DNA from: Escherichia coli
Lineage (GTDB): Bacteria > Pseudomonadota > Gammaproteobacteria > Enterobacterales > Enterobacteriaceae
Length of the DNA: 64,000 nt
Direction: 5' to 3' (one strand)
Assembly (NCBI RefSeq): GCF_009931435.1
Contig: NZ_CP043414.1
The notes beneath the pieces were generated by a model, which was not told where the DNA came from, did no database searches, and saw only the letters and a program-made list of their open reading frames with translations. Shown here piece after piece: positions 12,419 through 24,756 of this stretch (position 1 is the first letter of the stretch; each line of letters begins with the position of its first letter). Made by a program: the position numbers and the translations under genes.

Positions 12419-15400
12419 ATGGCTTCGACAAATGCGCAGCAAATAAAAAATAATGATCAAAACTCTTTATGCGGTCTGGGTGACAAAATACGCCGCCTGG
12501 CCGCCGGAGTTTGTTTATTCACACAAATTTTTTTCCCCGTCATGGTGACGGCACAAAATGTGGTACACGCTAAACCCCAGATGACAGTTTCATCTCCTCC
12601 CCCTCTTACAGAAAATAAAACCGTACCTTACACGCTTGGCGCGCTGGAATCAGCGCAAAGTGTTGCTGACCGGTTTGGTATTTCACTGGAAGAGCTTCGT
12701 CGTCTTAATCAGTTTCGTACTTTTGCCCGCGGCTTTGATAACGTGCGTCAGGGTGAAGAACTGGATGTTCCGGCAACAACCTCGCAGAGAAGTCATGAGC
12801 TACAAAATGCCGTATCACCGGCGAATGCCGAAAACACTCTGGAGAATCAAATAGCCAGTACTTCACAGCGAGTTGGCACTCTGCTTTCACAAGATATGAA
12901 TAGTGAGCAGGCGAGCAGCATGGCGCGTGGTTGGGCGTCTTCAGAAGCCTCTGGCACGATGACTGATTGGTTAAATGACTTTGGCACCGCGAAAATCTCT
13001 CTGGGCGTGGATGAAGATTTTAGCCTGAAAAATTCGGAATTCGACTTCCTGCATCCATGGTATGACACACCCGATTATCTGCTCTTCAGCCAGCATACTC
13101 TTCACCGAACGGACGATCGCACCCAGATCAACACCGGTTTAGGCTGGCGTTACTTCACCCCCAGTTGGATGTCAGGCATCAACCTGTTTTTTGATCACGA
13201 CCTGAGCCGCTATCACTCCCGCGCGGGACTTGGCGCAGAATACTGGCGTGACTATCTGAAGTTGAGCAGCAATGCTTATATCGGCCTGACCGGCTGGCGT
13301 AGCGCACCAGAATTGGATAATGACTACGAAGCCCGCCCGGCTAACGGCTGGGATTTACGCGCAGAAGGCTGGTTACCTGCCTGGCCGCATCTGGGTGGAA
13401 AACTGGTCTATGAACAATACTATGGCGATGAAGTGGCGCTGTTTGACAAGAATGATCGTCAAAGTAATCCCCATGCTATTACCGCAGGCCTCAACTATAC
13501 CCCCTTCCCGCTTCTGACTCTCAGTGCAGAACAGCGTCAGGGGAAACAAGGTGAAAATGACTCACGGTTTGCCGTTGATCTGACCTGGCAACCCAGCAGC
13601 TCAATGCAGAAACAGCTTAACCCGGACGAAGTGGCCGGACGGCGCAGTCTGGCCGGTAGTCGTTATGACCTGATTGATCGCAACAACAACATCGTTCTGG
13701 AATACCGCAAGAAAGAGCTTATCCGCCTGAGTCTGCTGGACCCAGTGAAAGGGAAATCGGGAGAAATAAAACCGCTGGTTTCCTCGCTACAGACCAAATA
13801 TGCCCTGAAAGGCTATAAAATCGACGCTGCTGCGCTGGAATCTGCTGGAGGAAAAGTCAGCACTTCCGGAAAAGATATCACGGTCACGCTGCCTGGTTAC
13901 CGCTTCACTAACACCCCGGAAACCGATAATACGTGGCCGATAGACGTTACCGCTGAGGATGTAAAAGGTAATCTGTCACATCGTGAGCAAAGCATGGTCG
14001 TCATCCAGGCTCCGGCATTAAGCCAGAAAGATTCTCTGTTATCCGTTAATCCGCTAACCCTGGCAGCAGATAAAAAATCGACTACCACATTGACTGTGAC
14101 TGCGCACGATTCCGACGGTACCCCGGTTCCGGGGCTGGCACTGCAAACCCGCAGTGAAGGTGTTCAGGATATCACTCTGTCTGACTGGACAGATAACGGG
14201 GATGGTAGCTACACACAGATGCTGACTGCAGGAACGACTTCAGGTTCAGTAACACTGACACCGCAACTTAACGGTGAGAGTGCGGTAAAAGAATCCATCG
14301 TCGTTAATATCGTCCCTGTTGTCTCATCCCGCGACCATTCTTCAATATCCATAGATAACATATTGTATTATGCCGGAGACGACATCAAAGTCAGGGTAGA
14401 ACTGAAAGACGACAAAAATAAACCGGTTGAATATCAAGAAGACGCGTTGGTAAAAGCCGTCACTGTCGAGAACAGCAAACCTGGCGCCACGGTTGTCTGG
14501 CACGAAGAGCATCCGGGCGTTTATGCAGCGAATTATCCGGCCCATAAGCAAGGAGCAGCCCTGAGGGCACAACTTAGCCTTCACAACTGGAATACTCCTC
14601 TGCAATCGCATATTTATAATATCGAAGCAAACCAGAATAAGGCTCACGTCGCCACATTATCCGCAACGAATAATGACGTTTACGCCGATAAAAAGACGTT
14701 TAATACCATCACTATTAACGTCACTGATGAGAGTGATAATCCCCTGAGAAATCATCAGGTCACCTTTAAGAATGAGAAAGGAAGCGCGGAATTTGTAGAA
14801 CCGACGCAGCAAAATACTGATGCACATGGTGTTGCCACAATCAACATGATAAGTCAGGTTGCGGAAGAAAATACGATTAGCGCTACGCTGCCAAATGGTT
14901 CTACTCAACGGGTAACTGCGAAATTTGTTAGCGATTCGAATACGCCAAAACTCAAACAACTGGTTGCCGCGCCAGATACCATTAGTGCTGGTAATAGCCA
15001 GGGTAGTACCCTGACCGCCACCGTCACAGACTTTCATAACAACCCGTTAAAAGATATGAAAGTGAATTTTGTGGCACCAACTGACTCGCAACTGGACAAC
15101 ACGACCGCCACAACTGACCAGTCCGGGATTGCGCGGGTGCACCTGACCAGTTCAAAAGCAGGTAACTATACCGTCGATGCCTCGCTTGAGGCGGATAAAA
15201 ATATTCACCAGTCGGTTACGGTTACCGTGGTCCCAAACAGGGAACAATCGGTAATTATTTTGAATGCCGGATCGGGCAGTACGATTGCTAACAATACAGA
15301 TACCGTTACCCTGACTGCCAGTGTGAAAGATGTTTATGGACACTCACTACCGGATGAGGATGTGAAATTTACCTTGCCAGCATCTATGACAGGGAACTTC

Positions 15401-17659
15401 ACGCTAAGTAGTGACACCGCTCGCACCGATTCAAACGGCAATGCCGTGGTCACATTGCGAGGCACAAAAGCGGGTGAGTTTACAGTGACGGCGACACTGA
15501 GCAGAAATAATACCAGTGCTAATCAGCTAGTCTATTTTATTGGGGATACAAGCAGCGCGCAGCTCCAGCCGCTGACTGCCTCATTATATACCATAGTTGC
15601 TGGCAACAGTACGGGGAGTACCCTGACAGCAACGATCCTGGACGCTTACCAAAATCCGCTTAAAGACCAACAGGTCACTTTCCAGAGTAACGATGTCACA
15701 CTAAGCGGAACAGAAGTCACCACCAATACGCAGGGTCAAGCGACGGTAATAATGACCAGCAATATTGCCGGACAACATAACGTAGTGGTGAGCCGGAAAG
15801 CGCAATCATCCGATAATAAAACGTTTAGTTTATCAGTGCTCCCGGATGAAAGTTCGGCGAAGATAATAAGTATAACCGGAGCCGAAAAAACGATAATGGT
15901 TGGCGAAAACATCACGCTACGAATACACGTACAGGATGCGTTTAATAACGTCATAGCCGGTCAACGCGTCAGATTAAGTGCGCTGCCAACCGCTAACATT
16001 ACGATAGACGATACGGCTTACACCGATAATAACGGCTATGCGTACGTTAACCTTATCAGCACCCAGCCTGGGGTCTATCAGGTGACAGCATCGCTGGACA
16101 ATAACAGTAGTCGTAAAGTTGACGTGAGTGTGGCAAAGGGCAAACTCGAGTTAACATCATCGAAGCCAGAAACCACGGTCCATAACAGTGAAGGTATTAC
16201 ACTGACCGCAACGGCAAGAAATATTCAGGGTGAATTGATGCCGGGGCAAATTATCACCTTTAGCGTAACACCTGATGGTGCAACGCTAAGCAATACAGGG
16301 GAAATCCTGACTGATCAGTCAGGTCAGGCCAAAGTGACGCTGACCAGTGACAAAGTCAATGTATATACCGTTACGGCCACAATGGGCAAAGACGTTCCCG
16401 TTCAGAGCCAGGTGACGGTTGCGGTTAAGGCTGATGCTACAACGGCACATGTTGTGAGTGTAGTGGCTTCTCCTGACACCATAATCGCCGACGGGGTTGA
16501 TAGCAGCACCATCACTTCACGAGTAGAAGATGATTATGGATTCCCGGTTGAAGGTGTCGACGTTAGTTACAGCTTAGACACCAAAGGCAGCCCGGTGATT
16601 AATAATCCAACTACGCGTACCGATCAGTCCGGGCAAGTCACGGCGACAATAACAGGTACATTGGCAGAAGCTCTAATTGTCAATGTTCAGGTCCCTGGCA
16701 CAGTCCACAAATCCGCAGCCATTACATTGATTCCTGGTACGGCAGATGAAAGTAAATCAACATTGAAATCTAGCGTTAGCTCTTTTATGGCTGACTTCCA
16801 GGAGAGCGCGACACTTACGTTAATATTGCAAGACAAGTACGGTAACCCGATAGTGACGTCTGATCATCTGGAATTTGTCCAGTCAGGTGCCTACGTGAAC
16901 CTCCTGAAGTTGAGCAATATTGATTACAGCCAAAGAAATTATGGCGAGTACACCGTCACTGTCACTGGCGGCGTAGAGGGCAGAGCGACTCTCATTCCTA
17001 TGCTGAACGGTGTTCATCAAGCAAACTTAAGCATATCACTGGATCTTGTCCGCTCAATAAAAGACATGCACGGTCATGTAACAGTCAACAACCATACCTT
17101 CACAACGGCTACATTCCCCAGTGAAGGTTTTATAGGGGCGTACTACACACTTAATGATGACAACTTTGAAGCGGGTAAAACCGTTAGTGATTATATGTTC
17201 ACAAGTTCACAGAGTTGGGTGTCTGTCGATGCTTCAGGTAAAGTTTCTTTCACAAATACCGGCGACCAAACTTCAGTCGTAATAAGCGCTGTTCCCAGAC
17301 AAGGAGGTACAACCTACCAGACATTAATTAAGCTGAAAGGCTGGTGGGTGAATCATGGGAATCAAACCAATATCTGGCTAACTGCCAATGCGTTCTGCAA
17401 CGCGAAAAGTGATGGATATAATCTTCCTGGCGTCGCACATTTAACGTCTGGCGAAAACAAACGCACGTTGGGATCGCTATATGGTGAGTGGGGGAACGTT
17501 GGGGAGTTTTCCAGTGATTCGCAATTTACCGCGGGTGCTTACTGGACCAATCAACAGGATGATTACAATAGACACGTCTATGTGCAGATGCTGACGGGCA
17601 GGATTGGAAGCGACGCAGATTCCAGCGCTCAACTAACTGCCTGCCGTAAATCACTTTAA
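12419..17659 (+). CDS. inverse autotransporter adhesin (intimin/invasin family): LysM, beta-barrel, many Big domains, C-terminal lectin-like domain (1746 aa)
   Basis: N-terminal LysM-like segment (YTLGALESAQSVADRFGISLEELRRLNQF), repeated Ig-like modules (TISAGNSQGSTLTATVTD / TIVAGNSTGSTLTATILD), Cys-containing C-terminal domain. Confidence 0.8.
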   Translation: MASTNAQQIKNNDQNSLCGLGDKIRRLAAGVCLFTQIFFPVMVTAQNVVHAKPQMTVSSPPPLTENKTVPYTLGALESAQSVADRFGISLEELRRLNQFRTFARGFDNVRQGEELDVPATTSQRSHELQNAVSPANAENTLENQIASTSQRVGTLLSQDMNSEQASSMARGWASSEASGTMTDWLNDFGTAKISLGVDEDFSLKNSEFDFLHPWYDTPDYLLFSQHTLHRTDDRTQINTGLGWRYFTPSWMSGINLFFDHDLSRYHSRAGLGAEYWRDYLKLSSNAYIGLTGWRSAPELDNDYEARPANGWDLRAEGWLPAWPHLGGKLVYEQYYGDEVALFDKNDRQSNPHAITAGLNYTPFPLLTLSAEQRQGKQGENDSRFAVDLTWQPSSSMQKQLNPDEVAGRRSLAGSRYDLIDRNNNIVLEYRKKELIRLSLLDPVKGKSGEIKPLVSSLQTKYALKGYKIDAAALESAGGKVSTSGKDITVTLPGYRFTNTPETDNTWPIDVTAEDVKGNLSHREQSMVVIQAPALSQKDSLLSVNPLTLAADKKSTTTLTVTAHDSDGTPVPGLALQTRSEGVQDITLSDWTDNGDGSYTQMLTAGTTSGSVTLTPQLNGESAVKESIVVNIVPVVSSRDHSSISIDNILYYAGDDIKVRVELKDDKNKPVEYQEDALVKAVTVENSKPGATVVWHEEHPGVYAANYPAHKQGAALRAQLSLHNWNTPLQSHIYNIEANQNKAHVATLSATNNDVYADKKTFNTITINVTDESDNPLRNHQVTFKNEKGSAEFVEPTQQNTDAHGVATINMISQVAEENTISATLPNGSTQRVTAKFVSDSNTPKLKQLVAAPDTISAGNSQGSTLTATVTDFHNNPLKDMKVNFVAPTDSQLDNTTATTDQSGIARVHLTSSKAGNYTVDASLEADKNIHQSVTVTVVPNREQSVIILNAGSGSTIANNTDTVTLTASVKDVYGHSLPDEDVKFTLPASMTGNFTLSSDTARTDSNGNAVVTLRGTKAGEFTVTATLSRNNTSANQLVYFIGDTSSAQLQPLTASLYTIVAGNSTGSTLTATILDAYQNPLKDQQVTFQSNDVTLSGTEVTTNTQGQATVIMTSNIAGQHNVVVSRKAQSSDNKTFSLSVLPDESSAKIISITGAEKTIMVGENITLRIHVQDAFNNVIAGQRVRLSALPTANITIDDTAYTDNNGYAYVNLISTQPGVYQVTASLDNNSSRKVDVSVAKGKLELTSSKPETTVHNSEGITLTATARNIQGELMPGQIITFSVTPDGATLSNTGEILTDQSGQAKVTLTSDKVNVYTVTATMGKDVPVQSQVTVAVKADATTAHVVSVVASPDTIIADGVDSSTITSRVEDDYGFPVEGVDVSYSLDTKGSPVINNPTTRTDQSGQVTATITGTLAEALIVNVQVPGTVHKSAAITLIPGTADESKSTLKSSVSSFMADFQESATLTLILQDKYGNPIVTSDHLEFVQSGAYVNLLKLSNIDYSQRNYGEYTVTVTGGVEGRATLIPMLNGVHQANLSISLDLVRSIKDMHGHVTVNNHTFTTATFPSEGFIGAYYTLNDDNFEAGKTVSDYMFTSSQSWVSVDASGKVSFTNTGDQTSVVISAVPRQGGTTYQTLIKLKGWWVNHGNQTNIWLTANAFCNAKSDGYNLPGVAHLTSGENKRTLGSLYGEWGNVGEFSSDSQFTAGAYWTNQQDDYNRHVYVQMLTGRIGSDADSSAQLTACRKSL

Positions 17660-17676: not shown

Positions 17677-17706
17677 AAAGGATACCCTTTTGCGAGGGTA
17701 TCCTTT
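17677..17706. terminator. putative bidirectional terminator hairpin between convergent adhesin gene and kptA
   Basis: Perfect 12-bp stem AAAGGATACCCT / AGGGTATCCTTT with 6-nt loop; weak U-tract on both strands. Confidence 0.45.
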
Positions 17707-17730
17707 CAGACTCATGACAAAAGCCAAATT

Positions 17731-17755
17731 GCCTGATGCGCTACGCTTATCAGGC
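17731..17755. repeat. REP-like palindromic element
   Basis: GCCTGATGCGCTACGCTTATCAGGC. Confidence 0.5.
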
Positions 17756-17839
17756 TTACACTATCTCTCTAATATATTGAATTTTTATGCTTTTGTAGGG
17801 AGCGCAAGGCGTTTATGCCGCATCTGGCACGAGCAAACA

Positions 17840-18412
17840 TTAATCAGCTCTTTTCTTCGGGCACTCAAGAAACTCAACAGCAACCGTTGATGTCAGCCAG
17901 ACCCCGTTTTCCGCTTGCCAGAAAGGGATGCCTCGTTTCGCCATTTCCTGTGCTTTGACGGTTAAAATAACCGGCAATCCGTGTCTTGCTCCCACTTTGC
18001 GTGCCGTTGCTTCATCAGCAGAGAGATGCACGTAATGACGCTCTCCTGGAATCAGCCCTTGTTTTTTTATCTCGTCAAGAAAGCGGCTTGCCGTACCGTG
18101 GTAGAGAAACTGTGGCGGTGTTTTTTCGGCAAAGGCAATGGCGACCTGCGAAGTCGAATGCCCCTGAACCGCGCGAATGCACCTACTATCACTGGAATAA
18201 CTAAAACGCTTTTTATCGCTGGTGGCGACAACGGTATCCAGTAATGCACGGGTTAACCGCTTACCTGCTTTTTGTGCACAAAGTATGAGCTTATCAATAT
18301 CCGCCCATCCTTCACGGTCAAGTACGATACCAATCGCCTCCGGTTTATGTCGGAGAACAAAACTTAAAAACTTGCTTGTATCCGCCAGCTCTTTTTCGTT
18401 GTACTTTACCAT
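17840..18412 (-). CDS. kptA: RNA 2'-phosphotransferase (Tpt1/KptA family)
   Basis: 190-aa ORF with Tpt1-like sequence ([24 protein letters not shown]). Confidence 0.85.
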
Positions 18413-18661
18413 CGCGTTTTCGTCCCTGGATTTTCCGTTTTTATTTACTCACGTCATTGTCACTGGATTTATGAATTTTCTGCAACGAAATCCTTCGCAG
18501 CATCTTGTTCAAACAGCGTAATTTTTCCGCTATGCAAAAAACGCATAGCCAGAAACATACTTGCATTTTCCCCATACCCACATGGCTGATAAGGTTTTTC
18601 AGCTCCAGGAATTTTCCTGGCTCAAGCAACACACAAACACAAAAAAACAATGGGGATTGTT

Positions 18662-19345
18662 ATGACACAACAAGGGGATGCTGTAGCCGGGGAGCTGGCG
18701 ACAGAAAAAGTGGGCATTAAAGGGTATCTGGCTTTTTTTCTTACCATAATCTTTTTTTCCGGTGTTTTTTCCGGGACAGACAGCTGGTGGCGCGTTTTTG
18801 ATTTTTCCGTTCTGAACGGATCGTTTGGGCAACTGCCTGGTGCGAACGGAGCCACCACCTCGTTTCGCGGAGCGGGTGGCGCGGGGGCTAAAGATGGCTT
18901 TCTCTTTGCGCTGGAGCTGGCACCATCAGTCATTCTCTCTCTGGGGATTATTTCAATTACCGATGGTCTTGGTGGATTACGCGCCGCGCAGCAGTTAATG
19001 ACACCTGTGCTAAAACCATTGTTGGGCATTCCAGGAATCTGCTCGCTGGCGCTGATCGCTAACCTACAAAACACCGATGCCGCCGCCGGTATGACCAAAG
19101 AGCTGGCGCAGGAAGGTGAAATTACCGAACGCGATAAAGTGATTTTCGCCGCATATCAAACCAGCGGTAGCGCCATCATCACCAACTACTTCTCTTCCGG
19201 CGTCGCGGTGTTTGCCTTTCTGGGCACGTCCGTAATCGTACCTTTAGCCGTCATCCTGGTGTTTAAATTTGTCGGAGCCAACATTTTGCGCGTCTGGCTT
19301 AACTTCGAAGAACGTCGCAACCCAACGCAAGGAGCGCAAGCATGA
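18662..19345 (+). CDS. yjiH: nucleoside-recognition-domain membrane protein YjiH
   Basis: Hydrophobic ORF; ATG 18662 preferred over ATG 18650; stop overlaps yjiG start. Confidence 0.8.
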   Translation: MTQQGDAVAGELATEKVGIKGYLAFFLTIIFFSGVFSGTDSWWRVFDFSVLNGSFGQLPGANGATTSFRGAGGAGAKDGFLFALELAPSVILSLGIISITDGLGGLRAAQQLMTPVLKPLLGIPGICSLALIANLQNTDAAAGMTKELAQEGEITERDKVIFAAYQTSGSAIITNYFSSGVAVFAFLGTSVIVPLAVILVFKFVGANILRVWLNFEERRNPTQGAQA

Positions 19346-19803
19346 CAACTCAGGTCCGCAAAAATGTCATGGATATGTTTATCGATGGCGCACGCCGTGG
19401 CTTTACTATCGCCACCACCAACCTGCTGCCGAACGTGGTGATGGCATTTGTCATCATTCAGGCGCTGAAAATTACCGGCCTGCTCGACTGGGTGGGGCAT
19501 ATCTGTGAACCCGTAATGGCGCTGTGGGGATTGCCCGGTGAAGCGGCAACCGTCCTTTTAGCCGCATTAATGAGTATGGGCGGCGCAGTCGGTGTTGCCG
19601 CCAGTCTGGCAACCGCCGGCGCATTAACCGGCCACGATGTCACTGTTTTACTGCCTGCAATGTATTTAATGGGCAACCCGGTGCAAAATGTCGGTCGCTG
19701 CCTGGGGACAGCCGAAGTGAATGCCAAATATTACCCGCACATCATTACGGTCTGCGTCATTAACGCATTGCTGTCGATCTGGGTTATGCAGCTTATTGTT
19801 TAA
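19342..19803 (+). CDS. yjiG: membrane protein YjiG (SpmB-like)
   Basis: 153-aa hydrophobic ORF; ATGA overlap with yjiH stop. Confidence 0.8.
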   Translation: MTTQVRKNVMDMFIDGARRGFTIATTNLLPNVVMAFVIIQALKITGLLDWVGHICEPVMALWGLPGEAATVLLAALMSMGGAVGVAASLATAGALTGHDVTVLLPAMYLMGNPVQNVGRCLGTAEVNAKYYPHIITVCVINALLSIWVMQLIV

Positions 19804-19815
19804 CAAGGAGTTATC

Positions 19816-20988
19816 ATGATTGATTATTCCGCAGCCGGTTTTACCCTGCTGCAGGGAGCGCATTTGTATGCGCCGGAAGATCGGGGAATTTGCGATGTCC
19901 TCGTCGCTAACGGCAAAATTATCGCAGTTGCCAGCAATATCCCTTCTGACATCGTACCTGACTGCATGGTCGTCGATCTCCGCGGGCAGATCCTCTGCCC
20001 TGGTTTTATTGATCAACACGTCCATTTGATTGGCGGTGGCGGAGAAGCTGGCCCCACTACGCGTACGCCGGAAGTGGCGTTAAGTCGTCTGACAGAAGCG
20101 GGCGTCACGTCAGTGGTTGGACTGCTGGGCACCGACTCTGTCTCTCGCCACCCGGAATCCCTGCTCGCCAAGACCCGTGCGCTCAATGAGGAAGGCATCA
20201 GCGCCTGGATGCTGACCGGCGCTTATCATGTACCTTCCCGCACCATTACAGGTTCCGTGGAAAAAGACGTGGCAATTATCGATCGCGTGATTGGCGTGAA
20301 ATGCGCTATCTCTGATCACCGCTCTGCCGCACCGGACGTTTATCACCTGGCCAATATGGCGGCGGAATCCCGCGTTGGCGGTTTGCTCGGCGGTAAGCCT
20401 GGCGTCACTGTGTTCCACATGGGCGACAGCAAAAAGGCATTGCAGCCTATCTATGACCTGCTGGAAAACTGCGATGTTCCCATCAATAAGTTGCTGCCGA
20501 CCCACGTTAACCGCAACGTACCGTTGTTTGAACAGGCGCTGGAGTTTGCGCGCAAAGGCGGTACCATCGACATCACCAGCAGCATTGACGAACCAGTCGC
20601 CCCTGCCGAAGGTATTGCCCGCGCCGTTCAGGCCGGTATTCCGCTGGCACGCGTCACCCTCAGCTCTGACGGCAACGGTAGCCAGCCGTTCTTCGATGAC
20701 GAAGGGAATTTAACCCATATCGGTGTTGCAGGTTTTGAAACGTTGCTGGAAACCGTGCAGGTTCTGGTCAAAGACTATGATTTCAGTATCAGCGATGCCC
20801 TGCGCCCGCTCACCAGTAGCGTAGCCGGTTTCCTTAACCTGAGCGGGAAAGGCGAAATTCTGCCAGGCAATGACGCAGACTTACTGGTCATGACGCCAGA
20901 ACTGCGCATTGAACAGGTATACGCCCGCGGCAAACTGATGGTTAAAGACGGCAAAGCCTGCGTGAAAGGAACGTTTGAAACGGCATAA
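19816..20988 (+). CDS. iadA: isoaspartyl dipeptidase (amidohydrolase superfamily)
   Basis: 390-aa ORF with metal-dependent hydrolase motifs (HVHLIGGGGE); RBS AAGGAG upstream. Confidence 0.9.
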   Translation: MIDYSAAGFTLLQGAHLYAPEDRGICDVLVANGKIIAVASNIPSDIVPDCMVVDLRGQILCPGFIDQHVHLIGGGGEAGPTTRTPEVALSRLTEAGVTSVVGLLGTDSVSRHPESLLAKTRALNEEGISAWMLTGAYHVPSRTITGSVEKDVAIIDRVIGVKCAISDHRSAAPDVYHLANMAAESRVGGLLGGKPGVTVFHMGDSKKALQPIYDLLENCDVPINKLLPTHVNRNVPLFEQALEFARKGGTIDITSSIDEPVAPAEGIARAVQAGIPLARVTLSSDGNGSQPFFDDEGNLTHIGVAGFETLLETVQVLVKDYDFSISDALRPLTSSVAGFLNLSGKGEILPGNDADLLVMTPELRIEQVYARGKLMVKDGKACVKGTFETA

Positions 20989-20994
20989 ACGGTT

Positions 20995-21039
20995 GTCAGC
21001 CGCCCGAATGGACGTAGAATGCCCGCAAGGGCGGCTGAC
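20995..21039. other. long-loop palindrome between iadA and hypT (possible terminator or protein-binding structure)
   Basis: 11-bp perfect arms GTCAGCCGCCC (20995-21005) / GGGCGGCTGAC (21029-21039) with 23-nt loop. Confidence 0.35.
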
Positions 21040-21052
21040 AGAGTAAAACGTA

Positions 21053-21964
21053 ATGGATGACTGTGGTGCGGTTTTGCATAATATTGAAACAAAATGGCTT
21101 TATGATTTTCTGACCCTGGAAAAATGCCGCAACTTTTCCCAGGCGGCAGTCAGTCGCAACGTCTCACAACCCGCATTTAGCCGTCGCATCCGCGCGCTGG
21201 AACAGGCAATTGGCGTTGAATTGTTTAACCGCCAGGTGACGCCTCTGCAACTCTCGGAACAAGGGAAAATCTTCCATTCGCAGATCCGCCATCTGCTGCA
21301 ACAGTTAGAGAGCAACCTTGCAGAACTGCGTGGCGGCAGCGATTACGCGCAACGTAAAATCAAGGTAGCCGCTGCACACTCTCTTTCTCTCGGTCTTTTA
21401 CCGTCAATTATCAGCCAGATGCCGCCGCTCTTTACCTGGGCGATTGAAGCCATTGATGTTGATGAAGCGGTCGATAAACTGCGTGAAGGGCAAAGCGACT
21501 GTATTTTTTCCTTTCATGACGAAGATTTGCTGGAAGCGCCGTTTGACCACATTCGCTTATTTGAATCTCAATTGTTCCCCGTCTGCGCCAGTGACGAACA
21601 CGGAGAAGCACTTTTTAACCTCGCACAGCCACACTTTCCGTTACTGAATTACAGCCGCAACTCCTACATGGGGCGATTGATTAACCGTACCCTGACGCGC
21701 CACAGTGAGTTAAGTTTCAGCACCTTTTTTGTCTCGTCGATGAGCGAGCTTTTAAAGCAGGTTGCCCTCGACGGCTGTGGGATTGCCTGGCTGCCGGAGT
21801 ACGCCATCCAACAAGAAATTCGCAGCGGGAAGCTTATCGTTCTGAATCGGGACGAACTGGTGATCCCGATTCAGGCCTATGCATACCGGATGAACACCCG
21901 TATGAATCCCGTGGCCGAACGCTTCTGGCGCGAACTGCGCGAGCTGGAGATTGTGCTTAGCTGA
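21053..21964 (+). CDS. hypT: LysR-family transcriptional regulator (hypochlorite-responsive HypT/YjiE)
   Basis: 303-aa ORF with N-terminal LysR HTH ([23 protein letters not shown]). Confidence 0.85.
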
Positions 21965-22349
21965 CATTCTCCAGCGTCGCACTACACCAACCGCCACTAT
22001 CCCAGACCAGATCAAACGTTAGCGGTTCATCGTCGTGGTGCAGCATTATCTCAAGGCTGATCGCCAGCGTGTGGCTGTACGCTTCTTTCAAATTGACCTG
22101 CAACGCCGCAATCCGAGGCTCATGAAATAACAGTGCAGAACGTAGTTGACGGCAATACCAGCTCTGGAGATGTTTGTCGCTCTGGTTATGCACTTGCCAC
22201 TCAGGCATACCTGAAACAAGTAATGAAGGTAATGCCGAATGAGGAGAATTAAAAAGAGTGAGGAGATCGCTGCATACCGATTTACGCAGTGATAACGTTT
22301 TATTGCCTGAAATTTCAGGTGAAACAGCCTGAAGTGATTGGCGCATCAT
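21957..22349 (-). CDS. iraD: anti-adaptor protein IraD (130 aa)
   Basis: ORF convergent with hypT, 3' ends overlapping by 8 nt; start taken at second ATG cluster (MMRQSL). Confidence 0.75.
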
Positions 22350-23020
22350 TTTGCGCACTCCTGACGTTTAGCAACATATGTGGCTTGCCCTGAATACCGG
22401 GCACCACTGTATTGATGCTCATTTTCCATAGCCATTCCCTTTTGTTCATTACATCCATGTCAGTCTGAGACAGGCCTGAATCCTGTCAGCAAAGTATAAA
22501 ACCTTACTTGCCTATGAATATCTACTGACTTTTCAGGAAAAAAGTCATGATTTGATAAAAATCATCAAACTCAAAAAAAAACTGCTAGTATATTCTGAAT
22601 ATTCCGAATAGTTACGTAGATGAAAATACTTGTCACCGCCGCTACTTAATCCCGGCGGGACATTATTTATTTTCGTATAATCAACCATGTATTACTTGAA
22701 ACAATTAGTTTGTAAATAATATAAATTGATAACATATCAAATACATCAAAAACACCATTCACAGGCATTATTAATATAGACATCAATATAACAACATCAA
22801 ATTCCAATTAGTAATAAGATATGCTTTTTAATTGCATGCAAATAATTTTAAATGAGCGTTTTTTGATACTTTAGAGTGTTTCCCACCCTTTCATATGACC
22901 GTGTAGAGTTGATATCACTACAACAGAAACATGCATGTCATTTGTTTACTTCTCTTTTTACTACAGAAAAATTTATCTATTTTTCTAAGCATCAGTGAAA
23001 TACTCATAAAGGTAATTAAT

Positions 23021-23842
23021 ATGTCTATGCCAATAAGCAATGCCGCTAACAACAAAATTTTTACAGATAATCATTTCGCTCATCATCCAAATGCCGATAA
23101 AGAATTAGCAGACAGTATGCCCTCGCATCTTAACTCGGAAAACATCTATGTCAGACCTCTTGTTCGTGGAAATAACCATAACTATGATGGGGGAAGTGTT
23201 GTCGAAATTAGACAGCTTGAAATTGGTAAACAAGGGTATTGGCCATTCAATTACGTAACAGCCGCATGTAAAGAATCCGATGGTATTTCAATCACAGGAA
23301 ACATACGCTGTGGTACCTGGAAGGCCAGCTCAGTATTAGACGGAATATACGGTGGAGTATGTAAAAAGGCGCATGTTTCCGCAGCGTTAGAAGCTGGTCT
23401 ACGGTTTAACCTAACTATGGATTCTAAAATTCCAAACACGATACATGAAATAACCCTAGGCCCTGGTTGCAATGTTCCAGGCTATGCGGGAACCACGATA
23501 GGATACCTGGCAACACTCCCCCTTGAAAAGGTTGAAAATTGGCAAGATACAACACTGCCAAGAATTGATATCTATATTGATCAGATAATGACTGTGTCAG
23601 GGGTAGCAAATTCTTCCGGATTCGCCCTTGCTGCATTACTTAATGCTAATATTGGAATGGGAAATGACCCAATAATTGGTATAGAAGCCTATCCTGGTAC
23701 CGCTGAGATCCACGCTAAGATTGGATATAAAGTTATCCCCGGGGATGAAAATGCACATGTCAAACGTATGACTCTGCAACCGTCATCTCTCCCAGAACTG
23801 TTTGAATTAAAAAATGGTGAATGGAATTATATTGGTAAATAA
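23021..23842 (+). CDS. yjiC: hypothetical protein YjiC
   Basis: AT-rich ORF; ATG 23021 with AAAGG RBS preferred over upstream ATG 22931. Confidence 0.7.
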   Translation: MSMPISNAANNKIFTDNHFAHHPNADKELADSMPSHLNSENIYVRPLVRGNNHNYDGGSVVEIRQLEIGKQGYWPFNYVTAACKESDGISITGNIRCGTWKASSVLDGIYGGVCKKAHVSAALEAGLRFNLTMDSKIPNTIHEITLGPGCNVPGYAGTTIGYLATLPLEKVENWQDTTLPRIDIYIDQIMTVSGVANSSGFALAALLNANIGMGNDPIIGIEAYPGTAEIHAKIGYKVIPGDENAHVKRMTLQPSSLPELFELKNGEWNYIGK

Positions 23843-23982
23843 CCACGGGGAAGAATGAGTACTAACATTCAGGTTATACAGATATTTAAACAATACCCTG
23901 CAATTTACAAAGTAATACTCATTGCAACTTCTTAATTTAAGAAAGCGCAAGGAACGTTTACCCTTGCGCTTATCATAATAAG

Positions 23983-24756
23983 TCAGGCGTCGACTTTATC
24001 CAGCGGCCATGAATCAAACAGATAGCCGTCAAAATAAATATCGTCAACGTTCGAGAATTCCAGCAGACGTTGTTTAACGTTTTCCAGATGCTGCCACATT
24101 GCCAGCTTCGCCGCTCGGGCGTCTTTTTTGATTAACGCGGCGAGGATCTGTTTGTGATCGCCCAACCACTCTTTGCGATACAGGCTGTCATCCAGATGGC
24201 TGTGCAATTGGATCCACATTGGATTGTTTTCCCGCCACTGCCAGGACTGACGGAATAACTCCACCAGCATGCTGTTATGCGTTGCTTCGGCAATGGCGAG
24301 ATGGAACTGCATATCACCGCTTTCGCTGCTACCCGGCGCGCTGGAAGCCAGTTCACGCTCTTCCAGTTGCAATGCCTGACGCATTTTGACGATATCTTCG
24401 CGGGTAGCCTGCAGGGCGGCAAATTCCGCGATGTTACTTTCCAGTAACTGACGCGCCTGTAACAGCTCAAAAGGACCCGCATCATTGCAAACGTTGGCAT
24501 CCGGACCGTCTGTGTTGTGGCTGTCTGAGCTATCAAGAACATAAATACCGGCACCCCGGCGCACTTCCACCAGCCCTTTGATCTCCAGCATGATCAGCGC
24601 TTCACGTACCACCGTCCGCGTGACATCAAGCATTTCTGCAATTTCACGCTCCGGCGGCAGCCGTTCGCCAGGATTGTACGGCGTCTTTATGATCAGATCG
24701 CGGATCATCGCCCCGACTTCCTGGTAAGGTCTTTGCGCAGAAGTGGCAGATTTCAT
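23983..24756 (-). CDS. uxuR: GntR/FadR-family repressor of hexuronate utilisation
   Basis: 257-aa ORF with N-terminal GntR HTH and FadR C-domain. Confidence 0.9.
   Translation of the reverse strand: MKSATSAQRPYQEVGAMIRDLIIKTPYNPGERLPPEREIAEMLDVTRTVVREALIMLEIKGLVEVRRGAGIYVLDSSDSHNTDGPDANVCNDAGPFELLQARQLLESNIAEFAALQATREDIVKMRQALQLEERELASSAPGSSESGDMQFHLAIAEATHNSMLVELFRQSWQWRENNPMWIQLHSHLDDSLYRKEWLGDHKQILAALIKKDARAAKLAMWQHLENVKQRLLEFSNVDDIYFDGYLFDSWPLDKVDA

What the first reader, a model, noticed from the sequence alone, without database searches (positions are those of the whole stretch)
20995..21039. Perfect 11-bp inverted repeat with a 23-nt loop between iadA and hypT
This is too long-looped for a classical terminator and lies 14 bp upstream of the hypT start, so it may be a regulator-binding palindrome or an attenuator-like structure.
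Basis: seen in the sequence. Interest (0 to 1): 0.25.

Follow-up and report, generated by a model that had tools for sequence, protein, structure and literature searches.

The report
Conserved hairpin enclosing the hypT promoter
The inverted repeat between iadA and hypT is real, single-copy and conserved across several enterobacterial genera with compensating base changes, and it most likely encodes an RNA hairpin that forms only in transcripts reading through from iadA, while hypT's own predicted promoter sits between the hairpin's two arms.

Summary
The repeat is real and slightly longer than reported. It has 12 perfect base pairs (20994-21005 / 21029-21040) with 23 nt between, inside the 64-nt iadA-hypT spacer. 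It occurs once per genome in 5,389 of 5,426 complete E. coli genomes.

It is strongly conserved in Salmonella, Citrobacter and Pluralibacter. The outer 9 bp of each arm are 17-18/18 identical, while hypT four-fold synonymous sites are only 34-48% identical. Three inner stem pairs and one loop-internal pair change on both sides and stay paired. Hafnia and Edwardsiella hoshinae have different arm sequences at the same place. This favours a folded nucleic acid over a sequence-specific protein site.

It is not an intrinsic terminator, because there is no U-tract. It is not a dispersed repeat and has no Rfam match.

The -35 hexamer overlaps the left arm, the -10 hexamer lies in the loop, and the right arm falls at about +3 to +14.

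My best reading is that only read-through transcripts from iadA form the hairpin, which abuts the hypT ribosome-binding site. This would insulate hypT from the upstream operon, as in IS10/IS50 fold-back inhibition. No transcript-end data were found, so the mechanism is inferred.

The parts
19816..20988 (+). iadA coding sequence (upstream, same strand; last gene of the annotated yjiHG-iadA unit)
   Evidence: ORF list; RefSeq annotation of matching E. coli records; transcription unit named yjiHG-iadA in PMC3946193 and PMC6469107
20993..20998 (+). -35-like hexamer TTGTCA; overlaps the left arm
   Evidence: Promoter scan, 10 of 12 matches with a 16-nt spacer; the same site is found in Citrobacter, Pluralibacter and Salmonella; invariant in alignment A4
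20994..21005 (+). Left (5') arm TGTCAGCCGCCC
   Evidence: the repeat finder pair I2, 12 nt, 100% complementary; outer 9 nt invariant across four genera
21006..21028 (+). 23-nt segment between the arms. It contains a small inner helix (21009-21011 with 21023-21025; 21013 with 21021), the -10 hexamer, and a GAATG direct repeat (21006-21010 and 21017-21021).
   Evidence: RNAalifold consensus; the inner helix is 91% paired, with one G-C to C-G switch
21015..21020 (+). -10-like hexamer TAGAAT, close to the centre of the palindrome
   Evidence: Across genera only hexamer position 3 varies (G or A), which is the least constrained position of sigma-70 -10 elements (established knowledge)
21027..21028 (+). 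Predicted hypT transcription start (A/A, 7-8 nt after the -10 hexamer). This is an inference; no experimental start site was found.
   Evidence: Position follows from the promoter match. It corresponds to about 4558315-4558314 (minus strand) in NC_000913.3, using the mapping.
21029..21040 (+). Right (3') arm GGGCGGCTGACA; would be about +3 to +14 of a transcript from the nested promoter
   Evidence: conserved; ends 11-12 nt before the ATG in all core genera
21040..21044 (+). Weak Shine-Dalgarno region (AGAGT here; AGGA or AGGT in other genera); it starts at the last base of the right arm
   Evidence: Read from the sequence and alignment; the assignment as a Shine-Dalgarno site is an inference
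21053..21964 (+). hypT (yjiE/qseD) coding sequence

Best explanation
The inverted repeat encodes an RNA hairpin: a 12-13 bp G+C-rich stem plus a small inner helix, about -29 kcal/mol. The hairpin can form only in transcripts that begin upstream of 20994, that is, in read-through from the co-directional yjiHG-iadA genes. No terminator separates those genes from hypT.

hypT's own sigma-70-type promoter is nested inside the repeat. The -35 hexamer overlaps the left arm, the -10 hexamer lies in the loop, and the predicted start is near 21027. The hypT-specific mRNA therefore carries only the right arm and has a short, open 26-nt leader.

In read-through RNA the closed stem ends exactly where the hypT Shine-Dalgarno region begins and 12 nt before the ATG. 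It would occupy the 5' part of the ribosome docking site and lower hypT translation from foreign transcripts. The hairpin would thus act as a transcript-origin-specific insulator, working like the fold-back inhibition of IS10 and IS50.

Shown here: the repeat, its single-copy status, its conservation and covariation, the conserved promoter-like hexamers and spacer, and the fixed distance to the ATG. Inferred: that the promoter fires, that read-through occurs, and that the hairpin lowers translation.
For: 1. Purifying selection. The outer 9 bp of each arm are 18/18 identical to the window in 12 of 13 other species (17/18 in S. diarizonae). hypT four-fold synonymous sites are only 34-48% identical in Salmonella, Citrobacter and Pluralibacter. 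Within E. coli, 78% of genomes match the window's 68-nt spacer exactly, against 0.2% and 2.3% for the adjacent 68 nt of iadA and hypT.

2. Pairing is what is conserved. The 13-pair helix is 96.7% paired, against 24-53% when the 3' partners are slid. Three pairs changed on both sides (C-G to U-A, with U-G intermediates), and the covariation score was reached by 0 of 500 shuffles. An inner helix has a G-C to C-G switch. Salmonella arizonae extends the stem to 15-16 bp. Hafnia has a 15-bp stem built from different arm sequences (z = -3.2). E. hoshinae has an 11-bp repeat whose right arm covers GGAG.

3. Nested promoter. TTGTCA, 16 nt, TAGAAT/TAAAAT scores 10 of 12 at the same position in Escherichia, Salmonella, two Citrobacter groups and Pluralibacter. 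The spacer length is invariant, whereas a 1-nt indel is tolerated downstream of the -10 hexamer.

4. Position is tied to hypT, not to iadA. The arm-to-ATG distance is 11-12 nt in all core genera, whereas the iadA-stop-to-arm distance ranges from 5 to 62 nt.

5. The repeat goes with a co-directional upstream gene. It is present behind iadA in most genera (but see Entomohabitans below) and behind a co-directional 164-aa ORF in E. hoshinae. It is not conserved in the E. anguillarum/piscicida/ictaluri group, where the sequence upstream of hypT reads as the start of a divergent gene (my reading).

6. Predicted cost of opening the ribosome site. Opening -20..+15 costs 9-18 kcal/mol more in read-through RNA than in nested-promoter RNA in all seven lineages tested. 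The Shine-Dalgarno unpaired probability falls to 0.00-0.21 in C. amalonaticus, Hafnia and E. hoshinae.

7. No terminator-like site lies between iadA and hypT.
Against: No experimental 5' or 3' end was found for this spacer in any supplement I could search.

In E. coli itself the Shine-Dalgarno region and ATG remain about as accessible in the read-through fold as in the short transcript: unpaired probability 0.65 against 0.62, and only 4 kcal/mol extra to open -15..+15. Any effect would therefore depend on standby-site or steric hindrance.

The scan finds no nested promoter in Hafnia or E. hoshinae, only -10-like hexamers that I read in the loop.

Wobble asymmetry does not settle the RNA strand. 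About three + strand-compatible U-G states stand against three C-A or A-C states. The fixed ones favour the + strand and the singletons do not.

Entomohabitans has iadA upstream but has lost the outer stem.

The left arm is also the -35 hexamer, so its invariance cannot be assigned to pairing alone.

The RpoD-holoenzyme SELEX table in PMC3946193 does not mention yjiE.
Confidence: 0.45

Rival explanations
1. Intercistronic mRNA stability barrier. The hairpin forms in the read-through transcript. After cleavage in the A/U-rich stretch just downstream (GAGUAAAACGUAAU), it would protect the yjiHG-iadA part from 3'-to-5' exonucleases, so iadA outlasts hypT on the same primary transcript. This is not mutually exclusive with the best explanation.
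For: A stable, conserved stem-loop (-28.9 kcal/mol) lies directly after the upstream cistron with no terminator. The databases treat yjiHG-iadA as a unit that ends at iadA. Stem covariation fits any RNA role.
Against: The hairpin keeps a fixed distance of 11-12 nt to the hypT ATG, but a variable distance of 5-62 nt from the iadA stop. Salmonella has a separate extra hairpin right after the iadA stop and still keeps this one. E. hoshinae keeps a comparable repeat behind an unrelated upstream ORF. No 3' end for iadA or hypT appeared in the held supplements of the 3'-end mapping study.
Confidence: 0.2
2. DNA operator. The two arms would be symmetric half-sites for a protein, either HypT itself (autoregulation typical of LysR-type regulators) or another factor. 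The protein would contact the -35 region and the +3 to +14 region and repress or remodel the hypT promoter.
For: The outer 9 bp of both arms are invariant in sequence, not just in pairing, across four genera. TGTC...GACA is shared even with Hafnia. The outermost hexamers are about 41 bp apart, roughly four helical turns, so they face the same side of the DNA (my calculation). HypT shifts a 158-bp 'hypT promoter' fragment in a gel-shift assay (PMC3792123). The conserved GAATG in the promoter spacer is otherwise unexplained.
Against: The half-sites lie 35 bp apart centre to centre, which is not the 15-bp T-N11-A dyad of LysR-type sites. The inner arm positions change symmetrically, through T/G intermediates, as expected for base pairing. 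A loop-internal helix also covaries. Hafnia and E. hoshinae have different arms, although the HypT helix-turn-helix ([13 protein letters not shown]) is identical in Hafnia. The gel shift used 6 uM protein and 20 nM DNA, and no site was mapped.
Confidence: 0.15
3. Leader structure. hypT would be transcribed only from a promoter upstream of the left arm (inside iadA or at yjiH). The hairpin would then be a constant part of the hypT 5' leader, acting as a translational damper or a binding site for an RNA-binding protein or nuclease. The -35/-10 match would be incidental.
For: Hafnia and E. hoshinae keep the hairpin without a scan-level nested promoter. In those two the stem covers part or all of the Shine-Dalgarno region.
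Against: The loop sequence TA(G/A)AAT, the TTGTCA hexamer and the exact 16-nt spacing are conserved as a promoter would be, and a terminal loop has no other reason for that pattern. No other promoter-like site lies on the + strand within 500 nt upstream in the window.
Confidence: 0.1
4. Intrinsic terminator or classical attenuator ending iadA transcription before hypT.
For: A G+C-rich stem lies immediately after a stop codon.
Against: No U-tract follows on either strand (GAGUAAAACG on the + strand; ACCGUUUAUGCC on the - strand). The terminator scan finds 0 sites. The arms are separated by 23 nt. There is no leader ORF, and the competing GCCC-GCAA-GGGC mini-hairpin is not kept in Citrobacter.
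Confidence: 0.03

Closest known systems
Fold-back inhibition of IS10 (Tn10) and IS50 (Tn5) transposase genes. Recalled from memory: Davis, Simons & Kleckner 1985, Cell 43:379; Krebs & Reznikoff 1986; Schulz & Reznikoff 1991. These papers were not held in the library.
   Same: A gene's own promoter lies between the two arms of an inverted repeat. Transcripts entering from outside carry both arms and fold; the gene's own transcript carries only the 3' arm. The 3' arm lies at the translation initiation region. The purpose is to uncouple the gene from upstream transcription.
   Different: In IS10 and IS50 the fold covers the ribosome-binding site or start codon. In E. coli hypT the stem stops at the first base of the Shine-Dalgarno region, 12 nt before the ATG; it covers the site only in Hafnia, C. 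amalonaticus and E. hoshinae. This is a single-copy chromosomal regulator gene, not a mobile element. No experiment has been done on this locus.
IS200 left-end hairpins (PMC4513863)
   Same: [quoted passage not shown]
   Different: IS200 uses two separate repeats: a true bidirectional terminator, and a stem inside the gene's own 5' UTR. Here there is one repeat, no terminator, and the predicted start lies inside the repeat.
Intercistronic stabilising stem-loops, such as the REP elements between malE and malF (recalled from memory: Newbury et al. 1987, Cell)
   Same: A stable stem-loop between two co-directional genes with no terminator; expected to give unequal expression of the two genes.
   Different: This element is not a REP. 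It is single-copy in 5,389 genomes, and its sequence is unrelated to the REP-like elements seen at 17727-17835. Its position is fixed relative to the downstream start rather than the upstream stop.
LysR-type regulator autoregulatory operators (T-N11-A dyads; recognition and activation sites)
   Same: It lies at the promoter of a LysR-family gene. It has overall two-fold symmetry spanning about 47 bp, similar in size to a tetramer footprint.
   Different: The arms are not 15-bp dyads. There are no convincing inner half-sites (my inspection). The arm sequence is not conserved where the DNA-binding helix is conserved.

Membership tests
Rho-independent (intrinsic) terminator | G+C-rich stem with a short loop (3-8 nt) | tested here: not met
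   The stem is G+C-rich, but 23 nt separate the arms. The consensus scan finds 0 terminator-like sites in 20500-21500.
Rho-independent (intrinsic) terminator | Run of U immediately 3' of the stem | tested here: not met
   The + strand tail is GAGTAAAACGTA and the - strand tail is ACCGTTTATGCC. The orthologues also lack a T-run.
Dispersed extragenic repeats (REP/BIME, ERIC, MITE-like) | Many copies per genome | tested here: not met
   Median of 1 place per genome in 5,389 E. coli genomes, always between iadA and hypT. The arm 12-mer occurs only at these two places in the window.
Curated RNA families (Rfam 15) | Match to a covariance model | tested here: not met
   No match in 18000-24000 overlapping the element, even at E <= 10.
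Sigma-70 promoter | -35 and -10 hexamers with 16-18 nt spacing | tested here: met
   TTGTCA, 16 nt, TAGAAT; 10 of 12 matches. About 0.5 such sites are expected per 1 kb on both strands.
Sigma-70 promoter | Conservation of hexamers and spacing in orthologous positions | tested here: met
   The same 10-of-12 site is found in Salmonella, two Citrobacter groups and Pluralibacter. It is not found in Hafnia or E. hoshinae.
Sigma-70 promoter | Mapped primary transcription start | not testable with these tools
   The held supplements of six of the seven transcriptome or promoter studies were searched and none mentioned yjiE, hypT or iadA; Conway 2014 has no supplement held as text.
Fold-back inhibition element (IS10/IS50 type) | The gene's own transcription start lies between the two arms, so only external transcripts carry both | tested here: inconclusive
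   Met by prediction only: the promoter match places the start at about 21027, between the arms. No experimental start site is available.
Fold-back inhibition element (IS10/IS50 type) | The 3' arm sequesters the ribosome-binding site or start codon | tested here: inconclusive
   E. coli: the stem ends at the first Shine-Dalgarno base, and the unpaired probability is 0.65 against 0.62. Hafnia, C. amalonaticus and E. hoshinae: the unpaired probability falls to 0.00-0.21. Opening -20..+15 costs 9-18 kcal/mol more in read-through RNA in all seven lineages.
Fold-back inhibition element (IS10/IS50 type) | Co-directional upstream transcription can enter (no terminator in between) | tested here: met
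   iadA is on the same strand, 64 nt upstream, with no terminator-like site. Actual read-through was not measured.
Fold-back inhibition element (IS10/IS50 type) | Read-through transcripts are translated less than own-promoter transcripts | not testable with these tools
   This needs reporter fusions with compensatory arm mutations.
LysR-type regulator operator | About 15-bp interrupted dyad with T-N11-A | tested here: not met
   The arms are 23 nt apart (35 bp centre to centre). By my inspection neither arm has a convincing partner half-site 11 bp away.
LysR-type regulator operator | Bound by the cognate regulator | not testable with these tools
   HypT shifts a 158-bp hypT promoter fragment at 6 uM protein, with no site mapped (PMC3792123).
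Intercistronic mRNA-stabilising stem-loop | Position tied to the 3' end of the upstream cistron | tested here: not met
   The stop-to-stem distance is 5-62 nt across genera, whereas the stem-to-ATG distance is 11-12 nt.

The most novel reading that the evidence does not exclude
A host chromosomal stress-regulator gene would use a dual-purpose DNA/RNA element. The same 47 bp would serve as its promoter in DNA and, in RNA made from upstream, as a hairpin that marks the transcript as foreign and blocks hypT translation. This would be the first fold-back insulation described outside mobile elements, conserved across Enterobacterales with lineage-specific arm sequences.

A further, unexcluded twist concerns regulation. 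The promoter's 16-nt spacer and G+C-rich discriminator (GCCCGC) resemble growth-rate and ppGpp-sensitive promoters (established knowledge). The hairpin would then keep hypT low in stationary phase, when the Crl/sigma-S-activated yjiHG-iadA genes (PMC6469107) are read.
Probability: 0.3. Interest if true: 0.55.

Novelty: new member of a known kind. Interest (0 to 1): 0.35.

Why it matters
HypT (YjiE/QseD) is the hypochlorite-specific regulator of E. coli, and I found no mapped promoter, operator or leader structure for it in the literature I could reach.

If the model holds, it explains how a regulator gene packed 64 nt behind an unrelated operon, with no terminator in between, keeps its own expression level. 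It would also show that a trick known from insertion sequences is used by ordinary chromosomal genes. That would make nested promoter-in-hairpin arrangements worth searching for at other tightly spaced co-directional gene pairs.

If instead the operator reading is right, the repeat gives the first candidate binding site for HypT. Either way, the element gives well-defined targets for mutagenesis.

Tried and rejected
**Transcript ends in the literature.** I searched the held supplementary files of Adams 2021 (3' ends), ROSE 2023, Romero 2014, SMRT-Cappable-seq 2018, Cho 2014 and Mendoza-Vargas 2009 for yjiE, hypT, iadA and coordinates, and found nothing. Conway 2014 has no supplement held as text. 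Thomason 2015, Gebendorfer 2012, Habdas 2010 and the two other Drazic papers are not held.

**Rfam.** No family matches the element.

**Dispersed repeat.** Rejected, because it is single-copy.

**Competing mini-hairpin.** GCCC-GCAA-GGGC (21021-21032) could act as an alternative fold, but it is not maintained in Citrobacter (G-A, G-G and C-A cells), so I dropped it.

**Long-range pairing.** The single-sequence fold pairs the iadA 3' end with hypT codons 4-8. This is absent from the consensus fold, so I dropped it.

**Wobble asymmetry.** I used it to try to choose the RNA strand, and it was inconclusive.

**Metagenome scan.** I scanned with a loop-anchored pattern that left the arms free. It gave 56 hypT-type hits, all E. 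coli-like, with only two arm variants. No new lineages were found, and the other 64 hits were chance matches.

**Edwardsiella anguillarum group.** Its G+C-rich repeats are not conserved (absent in E. ictaluri) and fold with z = -0.5, so I treated them as chance.

**Cruciform extrusion in DNA.** I considered this unlikely because of the 23-nt spacer (established knowledge). It was not tested.

Full report
**What is there.** The window matches the E. coli chromosome around yjiH-yjiG-iadA-hypT-iraD. The identity is 95-96% to most E. coli and 99.6% to one goat isolate. iadA ends at 20988 and hypT starts at 21053, both on the + strand, which leaves a 64-nt spacer. Inside it, TGTCAGCCGCCC (20994-21005) is perfectly complementary to GGGCGGCTGACA (21029-21040), with 23 nt between the arms. 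T20993/G21041 could add a wobble pair in RNA.

**Is it more than chance?** A perfect 12-bp repeat with a loop of 50 nt or less is expected 0.22 times per shuffled window, and the real window has two. The count alone is therefore weak evidence. The hairpin alone folds at -28.9 kcal/mol, and the 101-nt context has z = -4.1.

**What it is not.**
- It is not an intrinsic terminator. No T-run follows on either strand, and the scan finds no terminator-like site.
- It is not a dispersed repeat. There is one place per genome in 5,389 of 5,426 complete E. coli genomes, always at this junction.
- It matches no Rfam family, even at E <= 10.

**Conservation within E. coli.** 78% of genomes match the window's 68-nt spacer exactly, and 89% match the 47-nt hairpin exactly. 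Only 0.2% and 2.3% match the adjacent 68 nt of iadA and hypT.

**Conservation between genera.** A scan of species-representative genomes with HypT found the iadA-hypT arrangement in three further Escherichia species, Salmonella arizonae and diarizonae, seven Citrobacter, Pluralibacter, Entomohabitans and Hafnia. Against Salmonella, Citrobacter and Pluralibacter:
- hypT four-fold synonymous sites are only 34-48% identical to the window;
- the outer 9 bp of the two arms are 17-18/18 identical;
- the -10-like hexamer is 5-6/6 identical;
- the 12 nt between the right arm and the ATG are only 5-8/12 identical.

**Pairing is conserved, not only sequence.**
- On the 14-sequence alignment the 13-pair helix is 96.7% paired, against 24-53% when the partners are slid.
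- Three inner pairs change on both sides (C-G to U-A, with U-G intermediates fixed in one Citrobacter group). The covariation score was reached by 0 of 500 shuffles (17-sequence version).
- RNAalifold also predicts a small helix inside the loop (21009-21011 with 21023-21025; 21013 with 21021). It is 91% paired, with a G-C to C-G switch in the C. amalonaticus group.
- Salmonella arizonae turns the GAA/CAA internal loop into GAA/UUC pairs, giving a perfect 15-bp repeat.
- Hafnia (HypT 69% identical) has a 15-bp stem built from different arms around CTGTTGTCGC/GCGACAACAG (z = -3.2).
- Edwardsiella hoshinae has no iadA upstream but does have a co-directional 164-aa ORF. It carries an 11-bp repeat, CGCCACTCTCC...GGAGAGTGGCG, ending 3 nt before the ATG.
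- The HypT recognition helix is identical between E. coli and Hafnia. The differing arms therefore argue against the arms being a HypT recognition sequence.

The number of independent compensatory events is small, about four or five.

The promoter scan finds a single + strand site in 20500-21500: TTGTCA (20993-20998), a 16-nt spacer, then TAGAAT (21015-21020), scoring 10 of 12.
- The -35 hexamer overlaps the left arm, and the -10 hexamer sits near the centre of the palindrome.
- A start about 7 nt downstream, near 21027, puts the right arm at roughly +3 to +14.
- The same 10-of-12 site lies at the equivalent position in Salmonella, both Citrobacter groups and Pluralibacter.
- Across these genera the spacer length never changes, although a 1-nt indel is tolerated just downstream of the -10 hexamer.
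- The only variable hexamer position is the third of the -10 (G or A), the least constrained position in sigma-70 promoters (established knowledge). A hairpin's terminal loop has no other obvious reason to be conserved in that pattern.
- The scan does not find such a site in Hafnia or E. hoshinae, although by eye both have -10-like hexamers (GATAAT, TATACT) between the arms.

**Position.** The right arm ends 11-12 nt before the ATG in every core genus. The purine-rich Shine-Dalgarno-like bases (AGAG, AGGA or AGGT) begin at the last base of the arm. In contrast, the distance from the iadA stop to the left arm ranges from 5 nt (Escherichia, Pluralibacter) through 10-14 nt (Citrobacter) to 62 nt (Salmonella). 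Salmonella has an additional hairpin right after the stop. The element is therefore positioned relative to hypT, not iadA.

**Most likely mechanism (inference).** Transcripts that start upstream, by read-through from yjiHG-iadA, contain both arms and fold. Transcripts from the nested promoter contain only the right arm and have a short open leader.
- Opening -20..+15 around the ATG is predicted to cost 9-18 kcal/mol more in read-through RNA in all seven lineages tested.
- In C. amalonaticus, Hafnia and E. hoshinae the Shine-Dalgarno unpaired probability drops from 0.44-0.73 to 0.00-0.21.
- In E. coli itself the Shine-Dalgarno region and ATG stay open (0.65 against 0.62). Only the region upstream of -13 is closed, so any effect would have to act through the standby or docking region.

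This architecture works like the fold-back inhibition that protects IS10 and IS50 transposase genes from outside transcription (recalled from memory; those papers were not held). It also resembles the hairpins at the IS200 left end (PMC4513863). Consistent with a read-through-dependent role, the Edwardsiella anguillarum group has no conserved repeat; there the sequence upstream of hypT reads as the start of a divergent gene.

**Rivals.**
- A stability barrier protecting iadA mRNA is compatible with the RNA evidence, but it fits the positional data less well.
- A protein operator is not excluded. Both arms are invariant in sequence, their outer hexamers are about four helical turns apart, and HypT shifts a 158-bp hypT promoter fragment at 6 uM protein (PMC3792123). 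However, the spacing is unlike LysR-type dyads, and the covariation, the inner helix and the divergent arms in Hafnia all point to base pairing.
- A constant leader structure, transcribed from a promoter further upstream, would make the promoter match a coincidence.

**Weak points.**
- No 5' or 3' end data could be found.
- Wobble asymmetry does not fix the strand. U-G-compatible states are fixed in Citrobacter group 1, and also appear in Pluralibacter and in one E. coli allele (C21032T). C-A or A-C states appear in S. diarizonae, in E. coli G21037A (seen twice), and in one metagenome contig with G21002A.
- Entomohabitans has lost the outer stem.
- The left arm's conservation is confounded with its -35 role.

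**Verdict.** This is a real, conserved, single-copy structured element with a nested promoter-like site. As far as I could search, it has not been described for this locus. It most resembles known read-through-insulating hairpins. Interest is moderate, and the mechanism is unproven.

Noticed in passing
window 17677-17706 (and 17727-17835): This is the only other perfect 12-bp inverted repeat in the window: AAAGGATACCCT, 6 nt, AGGGTATCCTTT. It lies 18 nt after the stop of a 1746-aa ORF (12419-17659, + strand). With its flanking A and T runs it looks like an intrinsic, possibly bidirectional, terminator. REP-like sequences follow it (GCCTGATGCGCTACGCTTATCAGGC).
   Followed up: partly
window 12419-17659: A 1746-aa ORF sits next to kptA, where E. 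coli K-12 has yjiJ. The window therefore differs from K-12 in gene content upstream of kptA. I did not identify the ORF.
   Followed up: no
window 21006-21010 and 21017-21021: A direct repeat GAATG with an 11-nt period lies inside the loop. The first copy is in the promoter spacer and is invariant across Escherichia, Salmonella, Citrobacter and Pluralibacter. Neither the -10 hexamer nor the inner helix explains it. It could be a protein contact.
   Followed up: partly
L010 2384-2433 and L008 (Salmonella arizonae/diarizonae): These Salmonella species have about 58 extra nt right after the iadA stop. The insert folds into a separate hairpin, while the hypT-proximal hairpin stays 12 nt from the ATG.
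   Followed up: partly
window 21957-21964: The hypT 3' end overlaps the start of the convergent iraD ORF (21957-22358, - strand) by 8 nt, as in the K-12 annotation. The two transcripts must therefore overlap.
   Followed up: no
L083, L084 (E. coli O157:H7): In both O157:H7 records sampled, no hypT CDS is annotated in the 40 nt after the spacer. The repeat is kept, with two loop substitutions (G21006T and G21025C); the second removes the U-G pair of the inner helix. This may relate to the truncated QseD reported for O157:H7 (from memory).
   Followed up: no
L074 (Bacillus coahuilensis m4-4, 605-nt contig): This contig encodes a peptide 100% identical to residues 275-303 of the window's HypT. 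It is probably E. coli contamination in that assembly.
   Followed up: no
L015 2427-2500 (Entomohabitans teleogrylli): The element is degenerate here. There is a perfect TTGACA, but about 8 nt are inserted before CCGCCC, putting it 24 nt from TAGAAT. The outer stem is lost, and there is no stable fold (z = +0.9).
   Followed up: partly
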